Source: Promethearchaeota archaeon
GTDB lineage: Archaea > Asgardarchaeota > Lokiarchaeia > Sigyniarchaeales > SOKP01
Direction: 5' to 3'
NCBI GenBank assembly: GCA_016839555.1
Contig: JAEOUA010000006.1
Location: forward strand, 480,001-544,000
Length of the DNA stretch: 64,000 nt
Part shown: positions 27,494 through 32,793 of the stretch, piece after piece
How positions within the stretch are numbered: the first letter of the stretch is position 1
How the letters are laid out: each line of letters begins with the position of its first letter
The notes under the pieces: generated by a model
Databases searched by the model: none
Seen by the model: the letters and a program-made list of their open reading frames with translations, nothing else
What the model was told of the DNA's origin: nothing
Translations under genes and position numbers: made by a program

Positions 27494-28681
27494 TTATATC
27501 CAATCTCCAGTTGTTAATTTCTCTGGGAGATATTTCTCAGTTAAAAATTCAAATCCATGAGAAGAAAGTGCTTGAATCTCTGCTTTTTTCTTATATTTTA
27601 GTGCTAATTTTAAATCTTTCTCCCATTCTGGATTATTTCTAATATATTCTTCTCTTAATAATTCTTCTGTTCTTTTAATATCGTTTTTTGTCATTGGTAT
27701 ACGGCAATCATCTGGAACCTTATATTTATCAAGATCCCTCGTTAATACCCCTAAAAGTTTAATATCAGGGGTCGCAAGGAAGGGAGATTCATAAGATAAT
27801 CTTTTAGAGCCCCGCATATATACTGAATGTATGTAATGTCCATAAGGGTCACTATCCACTAAACTAAAGACTGGTAATTTTAATTCATTTCTTAATCTTT
27901 TTAAGAACATTCGAACAGCTACGTTTCCTACACCTTGAGAAGTTAAAATAATACAAGGATATTGTCTCCAGAATCTAGATTCTGCTAATCTCATCATTGC
28001 AGCATCTTTTTCAACTACTAGGATAAATTCTGCATCAGATTCGATAATTTCGATGTCATCAAGCATTGGACTAATACCCCATCCCCCACTACCTAGCCCT
28101 TCTAGATCTATTATATCATTTCTGTCTCTAATACGTAATCTGCCAACACAAGAGCCTCTTGCAGAGGCAACCACATGAGTGGAATTTCTAGTAGTATATA
28201 GCATTGTAGATGCGTCTTCAATACTTTTATCACTATTCTTTTGGTCCTTAAATAATTTTACATCAGTATAAAAGATTTCACGCTTAGTTGCATGAATGTT
28301 TTTTTTTAATAATTCATTTATAATTTCCATAACACGCATTAATCTCGTGATGTCTGCTACGCTTGTTAATGAATGAAATTGCTTTTTTTGAATTTGTTTT
28401 CCAAGAAGAAGGAGGTCGGATTTATCGTCCCATATAATATTTGAATTCGATCTTGAAGGCAATTCAATAACCGGTTCGCCTGTTGCATATATTTCTTCAA
28501 TCATTTCATCTACTAAATCATATAAGCGTTCTAAAGCTTCTTTTCTTTTTAAATCATCGATTTTTATTGAGTCTTCTGGCAATTCTATTGCTAAAAATTT
28601 TTGTTCTTCTTTTAAAATTTCATTCATTAAATCTCTTGTTGCTTTTAGATCCCATTCTTTCGCTTTTTCTTTATTTGACAT
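27494..28681 (-). CDS. top6A: DNA topoisomerase VI subunit A (Spo11 homologue)
   Basis: TKREIFY (catalytic Tyr), VEKDA, DSDPYG (Toprim DxD), KAEIQAL. Confidence 0.96.
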   Translation of the reverse strand: MSNKEKAKEWDLKATRDLMNEILKEEQKFLAIELPEDSIKIDDLKRKEALERLYDLVDEMIEEIYATGEPVIELPSRSNSNIIWDDKSDLLLLGKQIQKKQFHSLTSVADITRLMRVMEIINELLKKNIHATKREIFYTDVKLFKDQKNSDKSIEDASTMLYTTRNSTHVVASARGSCVGRLRIRDRNDIIDLEGLGSGGWGISPMLDDIEIIESDAEFILVVEKDAAMMRLAESRFWRQYPCIILTSQGVGNVAVRMFLKRLRNELKLPVFSLVDSDPYGHYIHSVYMRGSKRLSYESPFLATPDIKLLGVLTRDLDKYKVPDDCRIPMTKNDIKRTEELLREEYIRNNPEWEKDLKLALKYKKKAEIQALSSHGFEFLTEKYLPEKLTTGDWI

Positions 28682-28702: not shown

Positions 28703-31700
28703 TTATTTTAATTTCCAATACTTTTTACCTTTTTTAGTTTGAAGGATTATTTCTCCTTTTCTTTCTAATTCTTTTAATTTTACTTGCAGCAATCTCGCAT
28801 CAAGCATATCTTTTATTCTCATTTTAAAGATTAATTGTTTGATTGTTTGCCACTCTTTGTTATCTAATGCCTTTAAAATTCCATCTGTAGTAATAATTGG
28901 CAATTTTGTTTGCATTGTTGTAGGATATTTTGGTATGACTTTTGGTTTGATTTTTTCTTTTTTAACTTTTTCAATTCTTTTAACCATTTTTTTCTTTTCT
29001 TCAGCCTTTTCTCGCTTCTGTTCTTTTTCGACTTTACCAACCGATTGTTGGATTAAGTCCATTATTTCTGCTTTCCTTACCTTTGATGGTACTTCTATCT
29101 TATTCTCTTTTGCAATATGTTTTAATTCTTTTATAGTATAATTCTCAAGGTTATGATAGTCTATTTCCTTTAGTTCTTCTTTCTCTTCTATTTTCTCTTC
29201 TTTTTTCTTTTCTTTTACTATCTCTATTTTTTCTTCCTTTATTTTTTTTTCTTCTTTTAATTTCTTTTCATCGTCCTCTATTTTTGCTTTCTGCGGTATA
29301 ACTTTTGCTTCAATAGTTTTTAAGGAAATTTCTTCAGTCAAACCATGGATAACCTTTCCTATTGGAGCTTTTATTAATTTTTCTAATTCTTCTTTTTTTA
29401 TTTGATCTTTATACTTACTACCTTCTATTGCAATATTATAGAGACTTTCAACAAATTTAGGAATATATCTCTCAATTAAATTAGCTCTTTTTTCCTTTCT
29501 ACGAATTTTTGCTCTTCTATTTAGATAAACTCTTAGTCTTCTTCCAATGGCTTCTAAACAATATTTTATTTCATCCATTAAATTTTCGTCTTCTGCCAAT
29601 GAATTTTTAGACTGAGATTTAAACATCAAATGAACATATGGTCCAGAAACATTAACCAAAATTTTAATAGGTCCTTTAGGTAATCCATTATCGAAGGTGT
29701 CTAATTTATAATTTTTCCAATTGACATTCTTAACTGCGTTTGTTATAGCACAGCCTGCAGTATCTCTTAATTTAGGAGTTCTATTTACAAATCTTGATAA
29801 TACATCCCTCGATCTTTTGGGGACTTCTAAATTATTACTATATGCTAAAACTGCCTCTACAATATAAGCTAATCCTTTTCCACTTACGGGATCTCGTGTT
29901 TCAGCCCCTACAAAATCATCATCTGTAGTGAAATTTTCGACAAAATATTCAAAAATCTGTTTATACTCAATTTTTTCTGAAGCTTCAGCATTAGCTAAAG
30001 TATTATTAAACTCATCTTCAAACCCTTCTGGTTCAAAATTTCCATCTTCGAATATTAGTGAGGAAAGAACTTTAGAATTAGTAGTTATAATCTCACTTTT
30101 ATCGATTTGAATATTTTTTAAACTATCACTTACCTCCTCAGACCCTTCTAATACTCTCTGTTTCTTTTTTCTCCTTATTAATTTTTCTCGCATCGGTGTT
30201 AGATTTATTTCAGGAGTCCCGAAATCATCTAGATTTTCCGATACTTTTAAACCTAATTCTTTTATTAAAGTATTCTCTAATACAACATCTCCTACAGGTA
30301 CTACTGTATCAGTAGGAGGAGCCATATATTTCATTGATTTGAATGCAAAAAAAAGTGAATTAAACTGATTATTTGTTAATTCACTCGGTTTCGTATCTGA
30401 AATTTTAACAGCTTTTGCTTTATCCGTATATTCATTTACAATTTTTTTTGTCTTTATTTCATTTAATCCGTCATGTATATCCTTAAAAATTTTAGTAAGA
30501 TTATTTCTAATTTTATCCTTTTTTTTTTGAAACTCATCTATTTCCTCTCGAGATGCTCGGACATCTCGTTTAATATTTTTCTGTTCTTTTTTAGTATTAG
30601 CATCTTGGATATCTGCTTTTAATTTTTTTATTTTTTTATTAATATTATCAATCTTTTTATTATATTTTTGGAAATTTTTAATCTCATTCCAATATTTTTC
30701 TCTTAATTCGTTTGAGATAACTTCATAGAGAATTAATTTTTTTCTTGGTTTATTGGATTTTCCATATATCCTATTCTCATATCGTAAGTAATATATTTTA
30801 TCCTCTTGTTTTTTCGCTTTAGCTATGAAGCTATCTTCAAGAATAAGTAGATCTAATTGATCTTGTAAATCTTTCTCTGCTAAATCAACTACCTCTTTTG
30901 CGGTATTATAACTCATTCTCACAAAATTATCTTGAAGAAATGAGGTAAAAGCAAGATGATCTGATTTTGCTAATAAATCTTGAAGATCTCCAATATTAGT
31001 TGATGATGGATGAGGTTTTGCATATTTAGGTTCAGCTGGAAAAGGAGAAACTTTTCTTGGATAAATATGTTCTTCGTTATAAGGATCTATATAAATTATT
31101 GTGACATGAGGATTCATTAAAGCTGTTTCTTTAACATATACATCTACATATCCTCTATTATATTTAACATTAAGATAGTTGAGCTTAGTATAAGTTCCAT
31201 GTAGAAAAGAAACGTCAATTTCTGTGGGATTCACTACATATCTTTTTTCATTTTTTGAAGTAGTAAAGAATTCTGAAGCTGTCGCATATAAATTATCTGA
31301 GGTTTTTGAAACTGTCACAATTGGTTTTCCCGTGGTGTTTTGAGCATCGCTAAAAGCACTAGGAGCTCCAAATCCTTGACTCCCTCGTGTTTGTTTTAAT
31401 TCCATACTTTTAGAAGAAGCAAGATATTTTCCAAATTTTTCTAAATCTGAAGGACCCATTCCGAGACCATTATCAAATACTTCAAATTTATAACTCATTA
31501 TATTTTTAGCGTCTATTTCTCCAGTTAATAATGAATGTGCTTCTGATTCTGTAATTCTTATAATAACAAGTGGTTCTTTATCAATGATATTAATATGATC
31601 TACAGGTTTTATAAGACTCTCCATATCTTCAACAATTTTTTTAACCTCTATTTCTTCAATCTCTTCTTTCTTTTTAGGCAGAGCTTTTTCTGTTTTTGAT

Positions 31701-32091
31701 AGGGTATCCCGACTTTCAGAATCTTGTGGTTTTTGAGAAGGAGCTATTATTTCATCCATTAGAGTGCGTTTAAGTGTATCACTTAATGTTTTAGGGCCCT
31801 TTTGCTCTCCCTCGCCCTGTAAGATTGAAAAATTTTCTAGAAATAGTTCTTGATCTAAGGTGTATTTTATCTGAGAGTCTTCTTTTTTTAATTCATTCCA
31901 TTGGAATGATTCTATAGCGTCAAGGGCATTATCTAAGAATTCGGCACAATATTGATTCCATAGCCTCAGGAGATCTGAGGGATTCTTGTATGTTTCCAAA
32001 AGCCGAACTCAAAACCGACCAATTGAGTCCTTTTACGCATGAACTGGGCTATAGTTCCTTGTTTAATGCGCCCATCTTCCTCTGTTGTCAT
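28703..32091 (-). CDS. top6B: DNA topoisomerase VI subunit B, extended form; reading frame interrupted near the 5' end (exon 1 about 32091-31988, exon 2 about 31955-28703)
   Basis: GHKL motifs EFLDNALDA, DNGLGM, QTRGSQGFG, HGT, ALMNPH; transducer RFVNRTP. The conserved N-terminal strap MTTEEDGRIKQGTIAQFMRKRTQLVGFEFGFWKH is encoded upstream in a different frame from ATG 32091; removing 32 nt gives a 1118-aa protein. Confidence 0.9.
31956..31987 (-). other. Candidate 32-nt BHB/BHL-type intron in top6B (boundaries could slide between 31989-31958 and 31986-31955)
   Basis: Insert has an in-frame TGA (31968-31966), hairpin CCTCAG/CTGAGG, central helix CAT(A)/(T)ATG, 3-nt bulge, and an outer exon-exon stem GAGTTCGGC/GCCGAATTC. 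Confidence 0.6.
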
Positions 32092-32793
32092 TATTTATTA
32101 CATTTCTCTTTGTAGTTGATTATCTATTTTTATATATATCAAATGATCTTTATTATACAAATTATATTAGATGTATGAGTAAATACTTATAAACCCAACT
32201 TTCTTCTTACTTTGCTACATGTATAAAATCTTTCAATTTTTTAGAAAATCGAGAAGATATTTAAATTTTTTTATTCCAAATGTTTATAAGAAATGATCTT
32301 GAAAAATCTGATATTTAGAAATTGTTTATAAAGATTTTATAAGTTATTAATTCTGAAATTTTCTAAGCCTTTATAATTCTTTTTAGAAACTAAATAATAT
32401 GAAGTAAATTCTAAAATAAATTTAATACGTGATTAAATTTTATACAATTAATAATTTTTAACAATTTACTTTTTTAATCTTTTTAGCTGGAAATGTAATT
32501 CTATTCTAATACAAAATAATAAATTTTTACTAAAAAAAGTTTTCAATTGATTTTAATTATTGAAATTTTCTCTTCTCTAAAATTTTTAAATTTGATAGGA
32601 ATAATAAGGAAATTATGAAAAAATTTCATGAATGAACATAATAGATAAACTGAAAGGAAATTATTGTATCTTATTAGATTTTTTTAATGGTAAATATTCA
32701 TTTCTAATATCAAATTAAAAATAAAATTAATATATTAACCTTTAAAATAAACCAAACAAAAGAAGTAGATTTTAAGATCAAAGAGAATGAAAT

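What the first reader, a model, noticed from the sequence alone, without database searches (positions are those of the whole stretch)
31937..32091. Candidate spliced intron in a protein-coding gene: top6B interrupted by a 32-nt BHB-like element
Seen (minus): ATG 32091 encodes MTTEEDGRIKQGTIAQFMRKRTQLVGFEFGFWKH, then the frame runs into TGA (31968-31966), while QYCAEFLDNALDA is in the -1 frame. Junction: TGG AAA CAT AC|AAGAATCCCTCAGATCTCCTGAGGCTATGGAA|T CAA TAT. Removing 32 nt gives GFEFGFWKH(T/N)QYCAEF, matching without gaps the Top6B pattern as I recall it (GFxNPxRALYQTVREL). The region folds into nested stems: outer exon-exon stem GAGTTCGGC/GCCGAATTC (32010-32002 with 31945-31937), TTGG/TCAA, central helix (A)CAT/ATG(G), 3-nt bulge AC|A, AG/CT pairs, hairpin CCTCAG/CTGAGG. 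Cutting after the second nucleotide of each bulge in this register (AC|A, AA|T) excises exactly 32 nt and yields H-T-Q. Known: archaeal splicing endonuclease EndA cuts BHB/BHL motifs; the established archaeal mRNA intron is crenarchaeal cbf5; the strap is part of the GHKL ATPase. This genome also has a non-canonical tRNA intron. Caveats: this register needs an A-G pair in the 4-bp helix, and the alternative register (CATA/TATG, CA|A, GA|A) would excise 30 nt and stay out of frame. Other explanations: hairpin-stimulated -1 frameshift, ribosomal bypass between the repeats TGGAAACA/TGGAATCA (38 nt apart), or assembly error. Inference: EndA-dependent pre-mRNA splicing of a housekeeping gene in an Asgard archaeon, possibly regulatory.
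Basis: partly seen in the sequence, partly recalled or inferred. Interest (0 to 1): 0.95.

Follow-up and report, generated by a model that had tools for sequence, protein, structure and literature searches.

The report
tRNA-type mini-intron in top6B mRNA
The gene for the ATPase subunit of topoisomerase VI in this uncultured Asgard (Loki-type) archaeon is broken by a 32-base insert shaped like a tRNA intron, so its messenger RNA almost certainly has to be cut and rejoined by the tRNA-splicing enzymes, which has been published for only one archaeal protein gene (cbf5).

Summary

- **The break:** top6B (minus strand, 32091..28703) is split after codon 34 by 32 nt (31987..31956). Unspliced, it stops at TGA 31968-31966.
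- **Relatives:** in 154 genomes of the same order, 100 carry the uninterrupted site WKH-x-QY. Eleven genomes in three genera carry an insert at exactly this codon. No genome has both forms.
- **Insert lengths:** 29, 31 or 32 nt, never a multiple of 3.
- **One geometry fits all 11:** exon RCAT pairs with intron GTGY as a 4-bp helix, next to a 3-nt 5' bulge, an inner hairpin with compensatory changes, and a 3-nt 3' site. Cutting after the second nucleotide at each site restores WKH(T/S)QY in every case.
- **Exon 1** is under purifying selection (728 synonymous against 144 non-synonymous differences).
- **Rivals fail:** one frameshift cannot rescue two alleles, the direction needed differs among the rest, and no take-off/landing codons match.
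- **Enzymes:** EndA alpha and beta and RtcB are present.
- **Caveats:** the window's allele is the weakest, with an A·G mismatch in the helix. In all alleles the 3' site lies in a 3x3 loop, so this is a relaxed BHB.

The scan had already noted this intron in another genome (e1-5555916) and similar introns in other genes of this genome. No RNA run was available.

The parts
31988..32091 (-). top6B exon 1: 34 codons plus the first two bases (AC) of the Thr codon. It encodes the conserved N-terminal strap ...GTIAQFMRKRTQLVGFEFGFWKH.
   Evidence: The peptide is conserved across the order. Codon differences among insert-bearing alleles are 728 synonymous against 144 non-synonymous.
31956..31987 (-). 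The 32-nt intron under the BHB cutting rule (cut after the 2nd nucleotide of each 3-nt site). It contains the in-frame TGA at 31968-31966.
   Evidence: Removing it gives WKH-T-QY, the form found uninterrupted in 100 genomes. The DNA is confirmed in a second sample. It is single-copy in this genome.
28703..31955 (-). top6B exon 2: the last base of the Thr codon, then QYCAEFLDNALDA... through to the stop. It is intact for about 1085 codons.
31990..31993 (-). 5' arm (exon, ACAT) of the central helix H. It pairs with 31961-31958.
   Evidence: 3 of 4 pairs plus an A·G mismatch in the window, and 4 of 4 pairs in the seven alleles of the other genera; the C-G and A-U pairs are invariant, and the U-A/U-G and G-C/G-U pairs vary on one side.
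31958..31961 (-). 3' arm (intron, ATGG) of the central helix H.
31987..31989 (-). The 5' three-nucleotide bulge ACA. The predicted cut lies between 31988 and 31987.
   Evidence: the bulge is ACA, ACG or TCA in all 11 alleles. Unconstrained folds show it as a 3-nt bulge in 5 of 11.
31962..31986 (-). Inner helix h' and loop. AG/CT closes directly on the bulge, followed by a 4-nt bulge, the 6-bp stem CCTCAG/CTGAGG and a 5-nt loop.
   Evidence: the stem is in the MFE fold. RNAalifold predicts it, with 6 of 8 pairs carrying compensatory changes..
31955..31957 (-). The 3' three-nucleotide site AAT. The predicted cut lies between 31956 and 31955. It faces an unpaired GAA (31997-31995 region), so it is a 3x3 internal loop and not a pure bulge.
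31997..32001 (-). Proximal exon-exon helix, 5' arm (TTTTG). It pairs with CAATA at 31954-31950, with 4 of 5 pairs in the window.
   Evidence: It is made of the conserved Tyr/Phe-Trp and Gln-Tyr codons and is equally present in insert-less alleles.
32002..32010 (-). Distal exon-exon helix, 5' arm (GAGTTCGGC). It pairs with GCCGAATTC at 31945-31937, 9 of 9 pairs.
   Evidence: Insert-bearing alleles have more Watson-Crick pairs here (mean 7.3 of 9) than insert-less alleles (5.2 of 9). This is only a hint, because the alleles are related.
27494..28681 (-). top6A (Spo11-type subunit), 21 nt downstream of top6B in the same operon.
   Evidence: TOP6A-Spo11 Toprim domain, E 3.4e-59.

Best explanation
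The 32 nt at 31987..31956 are an archaeal endonuclease-type (relaxed bulge-helix-bulge) intron in the top6B pre-mRNA.

**How it would work.** In the transcript, the exon bases ACAT (Lys/His codons) pair with the intron's 3' bases ATGG. The intron's own hairpin stacks on one side of this helix and exon-exon pairing on the other. This presents ACA and AAT as the two cleavage sites, four base pairs apart. The two-subunit splicing endonuclease (EndA alpha + beta) cuts after the second nucleotide of each site. RtcB then joins the exons to give ...TGG AAA CAT ACT CAA TAT..., which restores one 1,120-residue Top6B. The intron is probably released as a small circle.

**Shown here:** the insert, its exact position, the frame logic, the conserved and covarying structure in 11 genomes, selection on both exons, and the presence of the enzymes.

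**Inferred:** cleavage and ligation themselves, the exact cut positions (a one-base shift of both cuts gives ACA instead of ACT, also Thr), and the release of a circle.

**History.** The intron is old. Homologous copies occur in three genera, it is inherited vertically within clades, and it has been lost precisely, or transferred, at least three times. It most likely has no function of its own and persists because the cell's tRNA-splicing system, which is busy in this intron-rich genome, removes it efficiently.
For: 1. Distribution: 100 of 154 genomes of the order have the uninterrupted site and 11 have an insert at the same codon. No genome has both, and there is no second top6B copy in G000.
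2. Insert lengths are 32, 31, 29, 29, 31, 31, 31, 29, 29, 29, 29, never a multiple of 3. Unspliced, each gene stops 9-22 codons after the Trp. Cutting by the BHB rule gives WKH(T/S)QY in 11 of 11.
3. The central helix has 4 of 4 pairs in 7 alleles and 3 of 4 plus a purine-purine mismatch in the window's clade. The 3-nt sites are ACA/ACG/TCA and AAT/ATT/AAA/AAG.
4. Covariation: 91.7% of cells are paired against 23-45% in slid controls. Six of 12 pairs have changes on both sides, and 0 of 500 shuffles reach the observed score. RNAalifold finds the inner hairpin by itself. Unconstrained MFE folds recover the whole motif in 5 of 11 alleles.
5. Exon 1 has 728 synonymous against 144 non-synonymous pairwise codon differences among insert-bearing alleles, and exon 2 is intact.
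6. Enzymes: there are two EndA paralogues with 32% identity, one keeping the catalytic His stretch, and RtcB is present. Asgard EndA is described as (alpha-beta)2 with the L1 loop that gives broad specificity (PMC5829648). The rule of cutting between the 2nd and 3rd bulge residues, and relaxed motifs in pre-mRNA introns, are described for cbf5 (PMC2738675).
7. Same genome: four other invariant motifs (rnhB, argG, AMP phosphorylase, dnaG) are split by 28-31 nt with the same layout. Seventeen of 28 ARAGORN tRNA calls carry introns of 8-43 nt.
8. The insert is present in DNA of a second sample, and no insert-less DNA form was seen.
Against: - There is no RNA evidence. No RNA run holds this stretch, so splicing is inferred only from comparison.
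- The window's own allele is the most degenerate of the 11. It has an A·G mismatch at the outer pair of the central helix, a 4-nt bulge in the inner helix, and 4 of 5 pairs in the proximal exon helix. Its fold is no more stable than shuffles (z -1.27).
- In all alleles the 3' site faces three unpaired bases, so the motif is not a strict hBHBh'.
- RNAalifold does not predict the 4-bp helix by itself.
- The H5 arm is fixed by the Lys-His codons, so half of that helix cannot covary.
- My genome-wide strict-BHB and ORF-fusion scan showed no excess over controls, but that test was swamped by neighbouring-gene junctions.
- The L1 loop of the EndA alpha subunit was not examined here.
Confidence: 0.8

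Rival explanations
1. Removal at the RNA level by some other activity than EndA/RtcB, such as another structure-specific nuclease plus ligase, or an unknown self-processing RNA.
For: Cleavage was not observed. The 3' site is not a canonical bulge, and the window's central helix has a mismatch.
Against: Geometry and spacing fit the EndA rule exactly in 11 of 11 alleles. At 29-32 nt the insert is far too small for group I or II introns. No Rfam family matches. EndA alpha/beta and RtcB are present, and the same layout occurs in other split genes of this genome.
Confidence: 0.07
2. Translational bypass (ribosome hopping). The mRNA keeps the insert and ribosomes jump across it, as in phage T4 gene 60 or the byp elements of yeast mitochondria.
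For: The insert is short and not a multiple of 3, it holds a hairpin, and a stop codon lies soon after the take-off region. The window has two TGGAA-CA words 38 nt apart.
Against: No matching take-off and landing codons exist in any of the 11 alleles; the best is 2 of 3 bases, and not consistently. What is conserved is pairing between exon and intron plus 3-nt sites four base pairs apart, which bypassing does not need.
Confidence: 0.05
3. Programmed -1 frameshift in the window, so that the insert is translated as ...ETYKNPSDLLRLWN..., adding about 10 residues.
For: In the window the exon-2 frame is open from 32008, so one -1 shift anywhere between 32008 and 31969 would join the frames.
Against: Two alleles cannot be rescued by any single shift. 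Of the nine that could be, six would need a -1 shift and three a +1 shift. There is no conserved slippery site. The insert-encoded peptides share nothing across alleles. One hundred genomes lack these residues.
Confidence: 0.02
4. Dead or dying gene, a protein that starts downstream (TTG 31999) without the strap, or an assembly artefact.
For: ORF callers give a 1098-aa ORF from TTG 31999, and the genome is a metagenome-assembled draft (92% complete, 6% contamination).
Against: The same interruption occurs in 11 independent assemblies and in contigs from other samples. Exon 1 is under purifying selection in exactly these genomes. Exon 2 is intact over more than 1000 codons. There is no second top6B in G000. 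In three alleles a TGA directly precedes the last insert codon in the exon-2 frame, which leaves no upstream start.
Confidence: 0.04

Closest known systems
BHB intron of the cbf5 (pseudouridine synthase) pre-mRNA in Crenarchaeota (Watanabe 2002; Yoshinari 2006; Yokobori 2009, PMC2738675)
   Same: A short intron inside an archaeal protein-coding gene. It has a (often relaxed) bulge-helix-bulge at the exon-intron borders, with cuts predicted between the 2nd and 3rd residue of each bulge. It is processed by a hetero-oligomeric EndA. Its distribution is patchy, with gains and losses among related lineages.
   Different: A different gene (top6B, in the N-terminal strap just before the N-box) and a different lineage (an Asgard, Loki-type family). 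The 3' site lies in a 3x3 internal loop. Here it is one of several split protein genes in the same genome, not a lone case. Splicing of cbf5 was shown by cDNA and in vitro cleavage, whereas here nothing has been shown at the RNA level.
Non-canonical tRNA introns of Asgard and TACK archaea (Marck & Grosjean 2003; bioRxiv 10.64898/2026.10.13.758758; PMC11291895)
   Same: The same size range and the same helix/bulge layout, with part of the motif built from exon sequence. The same enzymes are presumed. This genome is rich in tRNA introns.
   Different: The host RNA is an mRNA, so the exon half of the motif is constrained by codons (Lys-His-Thr / Gln-Tyr) and not by the tRNA fold, and removal must be exact to the base to keep the reading frame.
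Unconventional cytoplasmic splicing of HAC1/XBP1 mRNA (Ire1 cleavage, RtcB or Trl1 ligation)
   Same: Protein-only, spliceosome-independent removal of a small mRNA intron at two stem-loop sites, followed by tRNA-ligase joining, which changes the reading frame of the product.
   Different: A different nuclease (Ire1, not EndA), different site structure, and a regulated stress response. No regulation is shown here.
Translational bypass elements (T4 gene 60; byp elements of Magnusiomyces mitochondria)
   Same: Short non-triplet inserts with a hairpin and an early stop inside otherwise intact genes.
   Different: Those need matching take-off and landing codons and stay in the mRNA. Here no such codon pair exists, and the conserved features are those of an endonuclease substrate.

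Membership tests
Archaeal EndA-processed intron (BHB or relaxed BHB), pre-mRNA type as in cbf5 | A 4-bp central helix formed by the 5' exon end and the 3' part of the intron | tested here: met
   RCAT pairs with GTGY at 4 of 4 positions in 7 of 11 alleles. The window's clade has 3 of 4 pairs plus a purine-purine mismatch (A·G in the window).
Archaeal EndA-processed intron (BHB or relaxed BHB), pre-mRNA type as in cbf5 | A 3-nt bulge at the 5' splice site, lying 3' of the helix arm and closed on its other side by an intron helix (h') | tested here: met
   The bulge is ACA, ACG or TCA in 11 of 11 alleles. The inner helix closes directly on it, with 100% pairing of the two closing pairs and compensatory changes.
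Strict canonical hBHBh' motif | A second 3-nt bulge on the opposite strand, closed by an exon-exon helix directly next to it with nothing unpaired opposite | tested here: not met
   The 3' site (AAT, ATT, AAA or AAG) is four base pairs across the helix, as required. However it faces an unpaired GAA before the TAYTG/CAATA helix, making a 3x3 internal loop. It therefore belongs to the relaxed class (HBh'-like), not the strict one.
Archaeal EndA-processed intron (BHB or relaxed BHB), pre-mRNA type as in cbf5 | Cutting after the 2nd nucleotide of each 3-nt site yields the functional mature sequence | tested here: met
   It restores WKH(T/S)QY and one long ORF in 11 of 11 alleles despite three different insert lengths. 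The product equals the uninterrupted form found in 100 genomes.
Archaeal EndA-processed intron (BHB or relaxed BHB), pre-mRNA type as in cbf5 | A broad-specificity splicing endonuclease ((alpha-beta)2 or epsilon2 type) in the same genome | tested here: met
   There are two paralogues of 198 and 208 aa, both with the EndA N- and C-terminal domains and 32% identical to each other. One has the His-containing catalytic stretch and the other lacks it. The L1 loop was not examined here; it is reported for Asgard EndA in PMC5829648.
Archaeal EndA-processed intron (BHB or relaxed BHB), pre-mRNA type as in cbf5 | An RtcB-type RNA ligase to join the exons | tested here: met
   PF01139 match with E 2.8e-169 in a 484-aa open frame at C6:295945-297252.
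Archaeal EndA-processed intron (BHB or relaxed BHB), pre-mRNA type as in cbf5 | Spliced transcript and excised (circular) intron observed, or cleavage by EndA in vitro | not testable with these tools
   No RNA run holds this stretch. Only DNA contigs could be laid.
Programmed translational bypass (gene 60 / byp type) | Matching take-off and landing codons flanking the gap | tested here: not met
   There is no consistent match in any of the 11 alleles.
Programmed ribosomal frameshift | One conserved shift direction and slippery site that joins the two frames | tested here: not met
   A single shift is impossible in 2 alleles. Six alleles would need -1 and three would need +1.

The most novel reading that the evidence does not exclude
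This intron is one member of a standing population of EndA/RtcB-spliced introns in housekeeping protein genes of a Loki-type Asgard family. On this reading, routine protein-gene splicing by the tRNA-splicing machinery occurs in close prokaryotic relatives of eukaryotes. The top6B intron would be old enough to be shared by three genera, vertically inherited, and repeatedly lost with single-base precision. Synonymous sites in the flanking exons (Phe TTC, Ala GCC) may be selected to hold the two splice sites together.
Probability: 0.65. Interest if true: 0.88.

Novelty: new member of a known kind. Interest (0 to 1): 0.8.

Why it matters
Published endonuclease-type introns in archaeal protein genes amount essentially to cbf5 in Crenarchaeota. 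I found no paper describing them in Asgard archaea.

Here an essential DNA topoisomerase subunit cannot be made without exact RNA cutting and rejoining. The same intron is kept, with compensatory changes, in three genera, and at least four other core genes of this genome are split in the same way.

This has four consequences:
- Gene callers mis-annotate these genes as truncated or frameshifted proteins, so the N-terminal strap of Top6B is lost from the predicted protein.
- In these organisms the tRNA-splicing enzymes are part of mRNA expression.
- The 11 interrupted and 100 uninterrupted alleles form a clean natural series for studying how introns are gained, kept and precisely lost in coding sequence.
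- Because Asgard archaea are the closest known relatives of eukaryotes, split protein genes there bear on how tolerance of interrupted genes arose, even though this mechanism is not spliceosomal.

Tried and rejected
1. **Genome-wide scan for strict BHB geometry combined with fusion of two long ORFs**. It found about 30,000 structural candidates. The number passing the ORF test was the same for the true cut sites, for cuts shifted by 1-4 nt, and for a mirror-handed motif, at every stringency. The test is dominated by junctions between neighbouring genes and says nothing either way.
2. **RNA evidence.** No RNA holder was listed for this stretch, so expression and splicing could not be examined.
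3. **Folding the window's 91 nt alone**. The MFE contains the hairpin and the distal helix but not the 4-bp helix, and z is -1.27, so a single-sequence fold is not informative.
4. **The CATA/TRTG register.** It gives a neat 4-bp helix, but both cuts would leave every allele two bases out of frame. It was rejected on the frames of 11 alleles.
5. **Sequence search of the N-terminal 91 aa of an insert-less orthologue against solved structures**. There was no Top6B hit because the fragment is too short and divergent.
6. **Rfam**. Only one sub-threshold chance hit.
7. **Mobile-element idea.** The insert and its hairpin core occur only once in the genome, allowing up to 6 and 3 mismatches respectively.
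Genome-wide, 17 of 28 calls carry introns.

Full report
**What is in the sequence.**
On the minus strand, ATG 32091 opens a 41-codon frame that reads ...GTIAQFMRKRTQLVGFEFGFWKH and then runs into TGA at 31968-31966. One base back, a second frame is open from 32008 and continues for about 1100 codons through QYCAEFLDNALDA to a stop at 28703. That long product is topoisomerase VI subunit B. It matches NCBIfam PRK04184 (E 1.7e-83), the Pfam Topo-VIb transducer domain, and solved Top6B chains such as 2q2e_B. Large lineage-specific insertions make it twice the usual length. top6A follows 21 nt downstream.

**The insert is real DNA.**
Contigs of public runs were laid on 31500-32500. The probable source sample matches throughout. 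A 1281-nt contig from a second sample spans 31833-32500 with no difference or gap. A contig from a different study ends inside the insert. No joint lacking the insert was reported.

**Orthologues decide the question.**
A six-frame search of 40 relatives showed that most align only from residue 18-19 of the long ORF, which is exactly the proposed 3' junction. Reading the 5' ends showed that insert-less genomes have one continuous frame ...GFEFGYWKH-x-QYCAEFLDNALDA, with three bases between the His and Gln codons. Four genomes of the window's genus have 32-35 bases there.

A pattern that fixes only the flanking codons and leaves the insert free was run on all 154 genomes of the order:
- Eleven genomes have an insert: 4 of 7 in the window's genus, 2 of 10 in a second genus and 5 of 42 in a third.
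- One hundred genomes have the uninterrupted form.
- No genome has both forms, and G000 has a single top6B.

So the residues YKNPSDLLRLW of the window's second frame are not part of Top6B anywhere else.

**Anatomy shared by the 11 alleles.**
Reading 5' to 3', the parts are:
- exon RCAT
- a 3-nt site ACA, ACG or TCA
- a 22-25-nt hairpin whose first and last bases pair
- GTGY (GTGA or ATGG in the window's clade)
- a 3-nt site AAT, ATT, AAA or AAG
- exon CAA TAY

RCAT pairs with GTGY at all four positions in the seven alleles of the other two genera. The window's clade keeps three pairs and has a purine-purine mismatch at the outer position (A·G in the window).

The inserts are 32, 31 or 29 nt long, never a multiple of three, and unspliced every gene stops 9-22 codons after the Trp. 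Cutting after the second nucleotide of each 3-nt site removes the right number of bases in all 11 and yields WKH(T/S)QY. This is the rule documented for tRNA and cbf5 introns (PMC2738675). In the window the intron is therefore 31987..31956.

The other register, CATA/TRTG, looks tidier in the window but leaves every allele two bases out of frame.

**Structure is conserved by compensation.**
On the MAFFT alignment of the 11 elements, the proposed 12 pairs are formed in 91.7% of cells, against 23-45% when partners are slid by 1-3 columns. Six pairs show changes on both sides, for example CC..GG in the window against GG..CC in others. No shuffle of 500 reaches the observed covariation score. RNAalifold independently predicts the inner hairpin, with 6 of 8 pairs compensated.

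Unconstrained folding of each ~72-nt region recovers the entire arrangement in 5 of 11 alleles. That arrangement is the distal exon helix, the TAYTG/CAATA exon helix, a 3x3 loop, the 4-bp helix, the 3-nt bulge and the hairpin.

Two caveats follow:
- The 3' site faces an unpaired GAA and is thus an internal loop, so the motif is relaxed and not a strict hBHBh'.
- The exon half of the central helix is fixed by codons, so it cannot covary.

The window's allele alone folds no better than shuffled sequence.

**Both exons are in use.**
Among the insert-bearing alleles, the 29 codons before the insert differ by 728 synonymous and 144 non-synonymous pairwise codon changes. Nearly all of the non-synonymous changes fall in the first five codons. 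Exon 1 is therefore translated in exactly the genomes where it is cut off from the rest, which argues against a start at TTG 31999 and against gene decay.

**Rival mechanisms.**
- **Single frameshift.** It cannot join the frames in two alleles, because the upstream frame stops before the downstream frame opens. Of the other nine, six would need a -1 shift and three a +1 shift.
- **Ribosome hopping.** There is no matching take-off and landing codon pair in any allele.
- **Known RNA family or mobile repeat.** The insert matches no Rfam family and occurs only once in the genome.

**The machinery and the genomic habit.**
G000 encodes two EndA paralogues of 198 and 208 aa. Both have the N- and C-terminal domains, and they are 32% identical. 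One has the His-containing catalytic stretch and the other lacks it. This is the two-subunit architecture reported for Asgard archaea, with a loop that confers broad substrate range (PMC5829648). RtcB is present. Seventeen of 28 ARAGORN tRNA calls carry introns of 8-43 nt.

Earlier notes of this scan listed many candidate protein-gene introns in this genome. I checked four directly:
- rnhB (DEAGR|GP)
- argG (SGGL|DTS)
- AMP phosphorylase (DKHS|TGG)
- dnaG (GAIFGQ|TEGLL)

Each is split by 28-31 extra bases with the same layout: helix, A-rich 3-nt site, hairpin, helix, A-rich 3-nt site. My attempt at an unbiased genome-wide count failed for technical reasons.

**History.**
On a Top6B tree, the insert-bearing alleles form well-supported clades inside the window's genus (4 rows, 100/99) and a second genus (2 rows, 100/99). 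In the third genus they are scattered in a poorly resolved part of the tree. Well-supported branches force at least three changes of state.

The inserts of different genera are clearly homologous, sharing GGTT-CAG...CTGAACCTGTG. The simplest history is therefore one old gain with several exact losses, although transfer by recombination is not excluded.

Insert-bearing alleles use TTC and GCC in the flanking Phe and Ala codons. This makes the distal exon-exon helix more Watson-Crick (7.3 against 5.2 of 9 pairs). It is a hint of selection on synonymous sites, not independent across relatives.

**Comparison with what is known.**
The closest case is the cbf5 pre-mRNA intron of Crenarchaeota. It has the same enzyme class, the same cutting rule, often a relaxed motif, and a patchy distribution (PMC2738675). 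Searches of the library found work on Asgard tRNA introns (bioRxiv 10.64898/2026.10.13.758758; PMC11291895) but nothing on Asgard protein-gene introns.

Within this scan, the same top6B intron was noted on another genome (e1-5555916, evidently G153). Unrelated BHB-like introns were reported in top6B of DPANN archaea, and in moxR of this genome.

**Verdict.**
The finding is a real feature, correctly read. It is a new member (new gene, new lineage) of the known kind 'endonuclease-type intron in an archaeal mRNA'. Comparative evidence supports it strongly, and it awaits RNA-level proof. Confidence in EndA/RtcB splicing is about 0.8.

Noticed in passing
G000 C12:+69954 (rnhB), C12:-56729 (argG), C12:+205675 (AMP phosphorylase), C7:+129736 (dnaG); positions are in the orientation of the named strand: Four other core genes of the same genome have invariant motifs split by 28-31 extra bases. 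Each shows the same layout of helix, A-rich 3-nt site, hairpin, helix, A-rich 3-nt site.
   Followed up: partly
L004, L006, L007, L008, L009 and others, about 100 nt upstream of the WKH codons: In many orthologues the position that holds ATG in the window and in L005 holds ATT or ATC (...AAA ATT ACC ACT GAA...). There is no in-frame ATG, GTG or TTG nearby. Either top6B starts at a non-standard codon in these genomes or the true start lies elsewhere.
   Followed up: no
window 28703-31955 (-): This Top6B is about twice the length of solved Top6B proteins. It has a ~115-aa insert right after the N-box, a ~150-aa Lys/Glu-rich insert before the transducer domain, and a ~250-aa Lys/Glu-rich C-terminal extension with a weak HeH/LEM-like hit.
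   Followed up: no
window 32002-32010 with 31937-31945, and the same sites in L002-L039: The distal exon-exon helix (Glu-Phe-Gly codons against Ala-Glu-Phe codons) has more Watson-Crick pairs in insert-bearing alleles (7.3 of 9) than in insert-less ones (5.2 of 9). The difference comes through Phe TTC and Ala GCC. This may reflect selection on synonymous sites, or shared ancestry.
   Followed up: partly
L038 (G148:C41:20870-20937): This allele's hairpin looks like a chimera. Its 5' arm resembles the window's genus (AGTCT-CAG) and its 3' arm resembles its own genus (CTGAACCT), which leaves two mismatches.
   Followed up: no
G009 (C29:16589 and C91:4726): One related genome carries two uninterrupted top6B copies on different contigs. 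This could be a duplication or contamination.
   Followed up: no
G000 whole genome: ARAGORN finds only 28 tRNA genes in 3.7 Mb, 17 of them with introns. Many tRNA genes are probably missed because of multiple or non-canonical introns.
   Followed up: no
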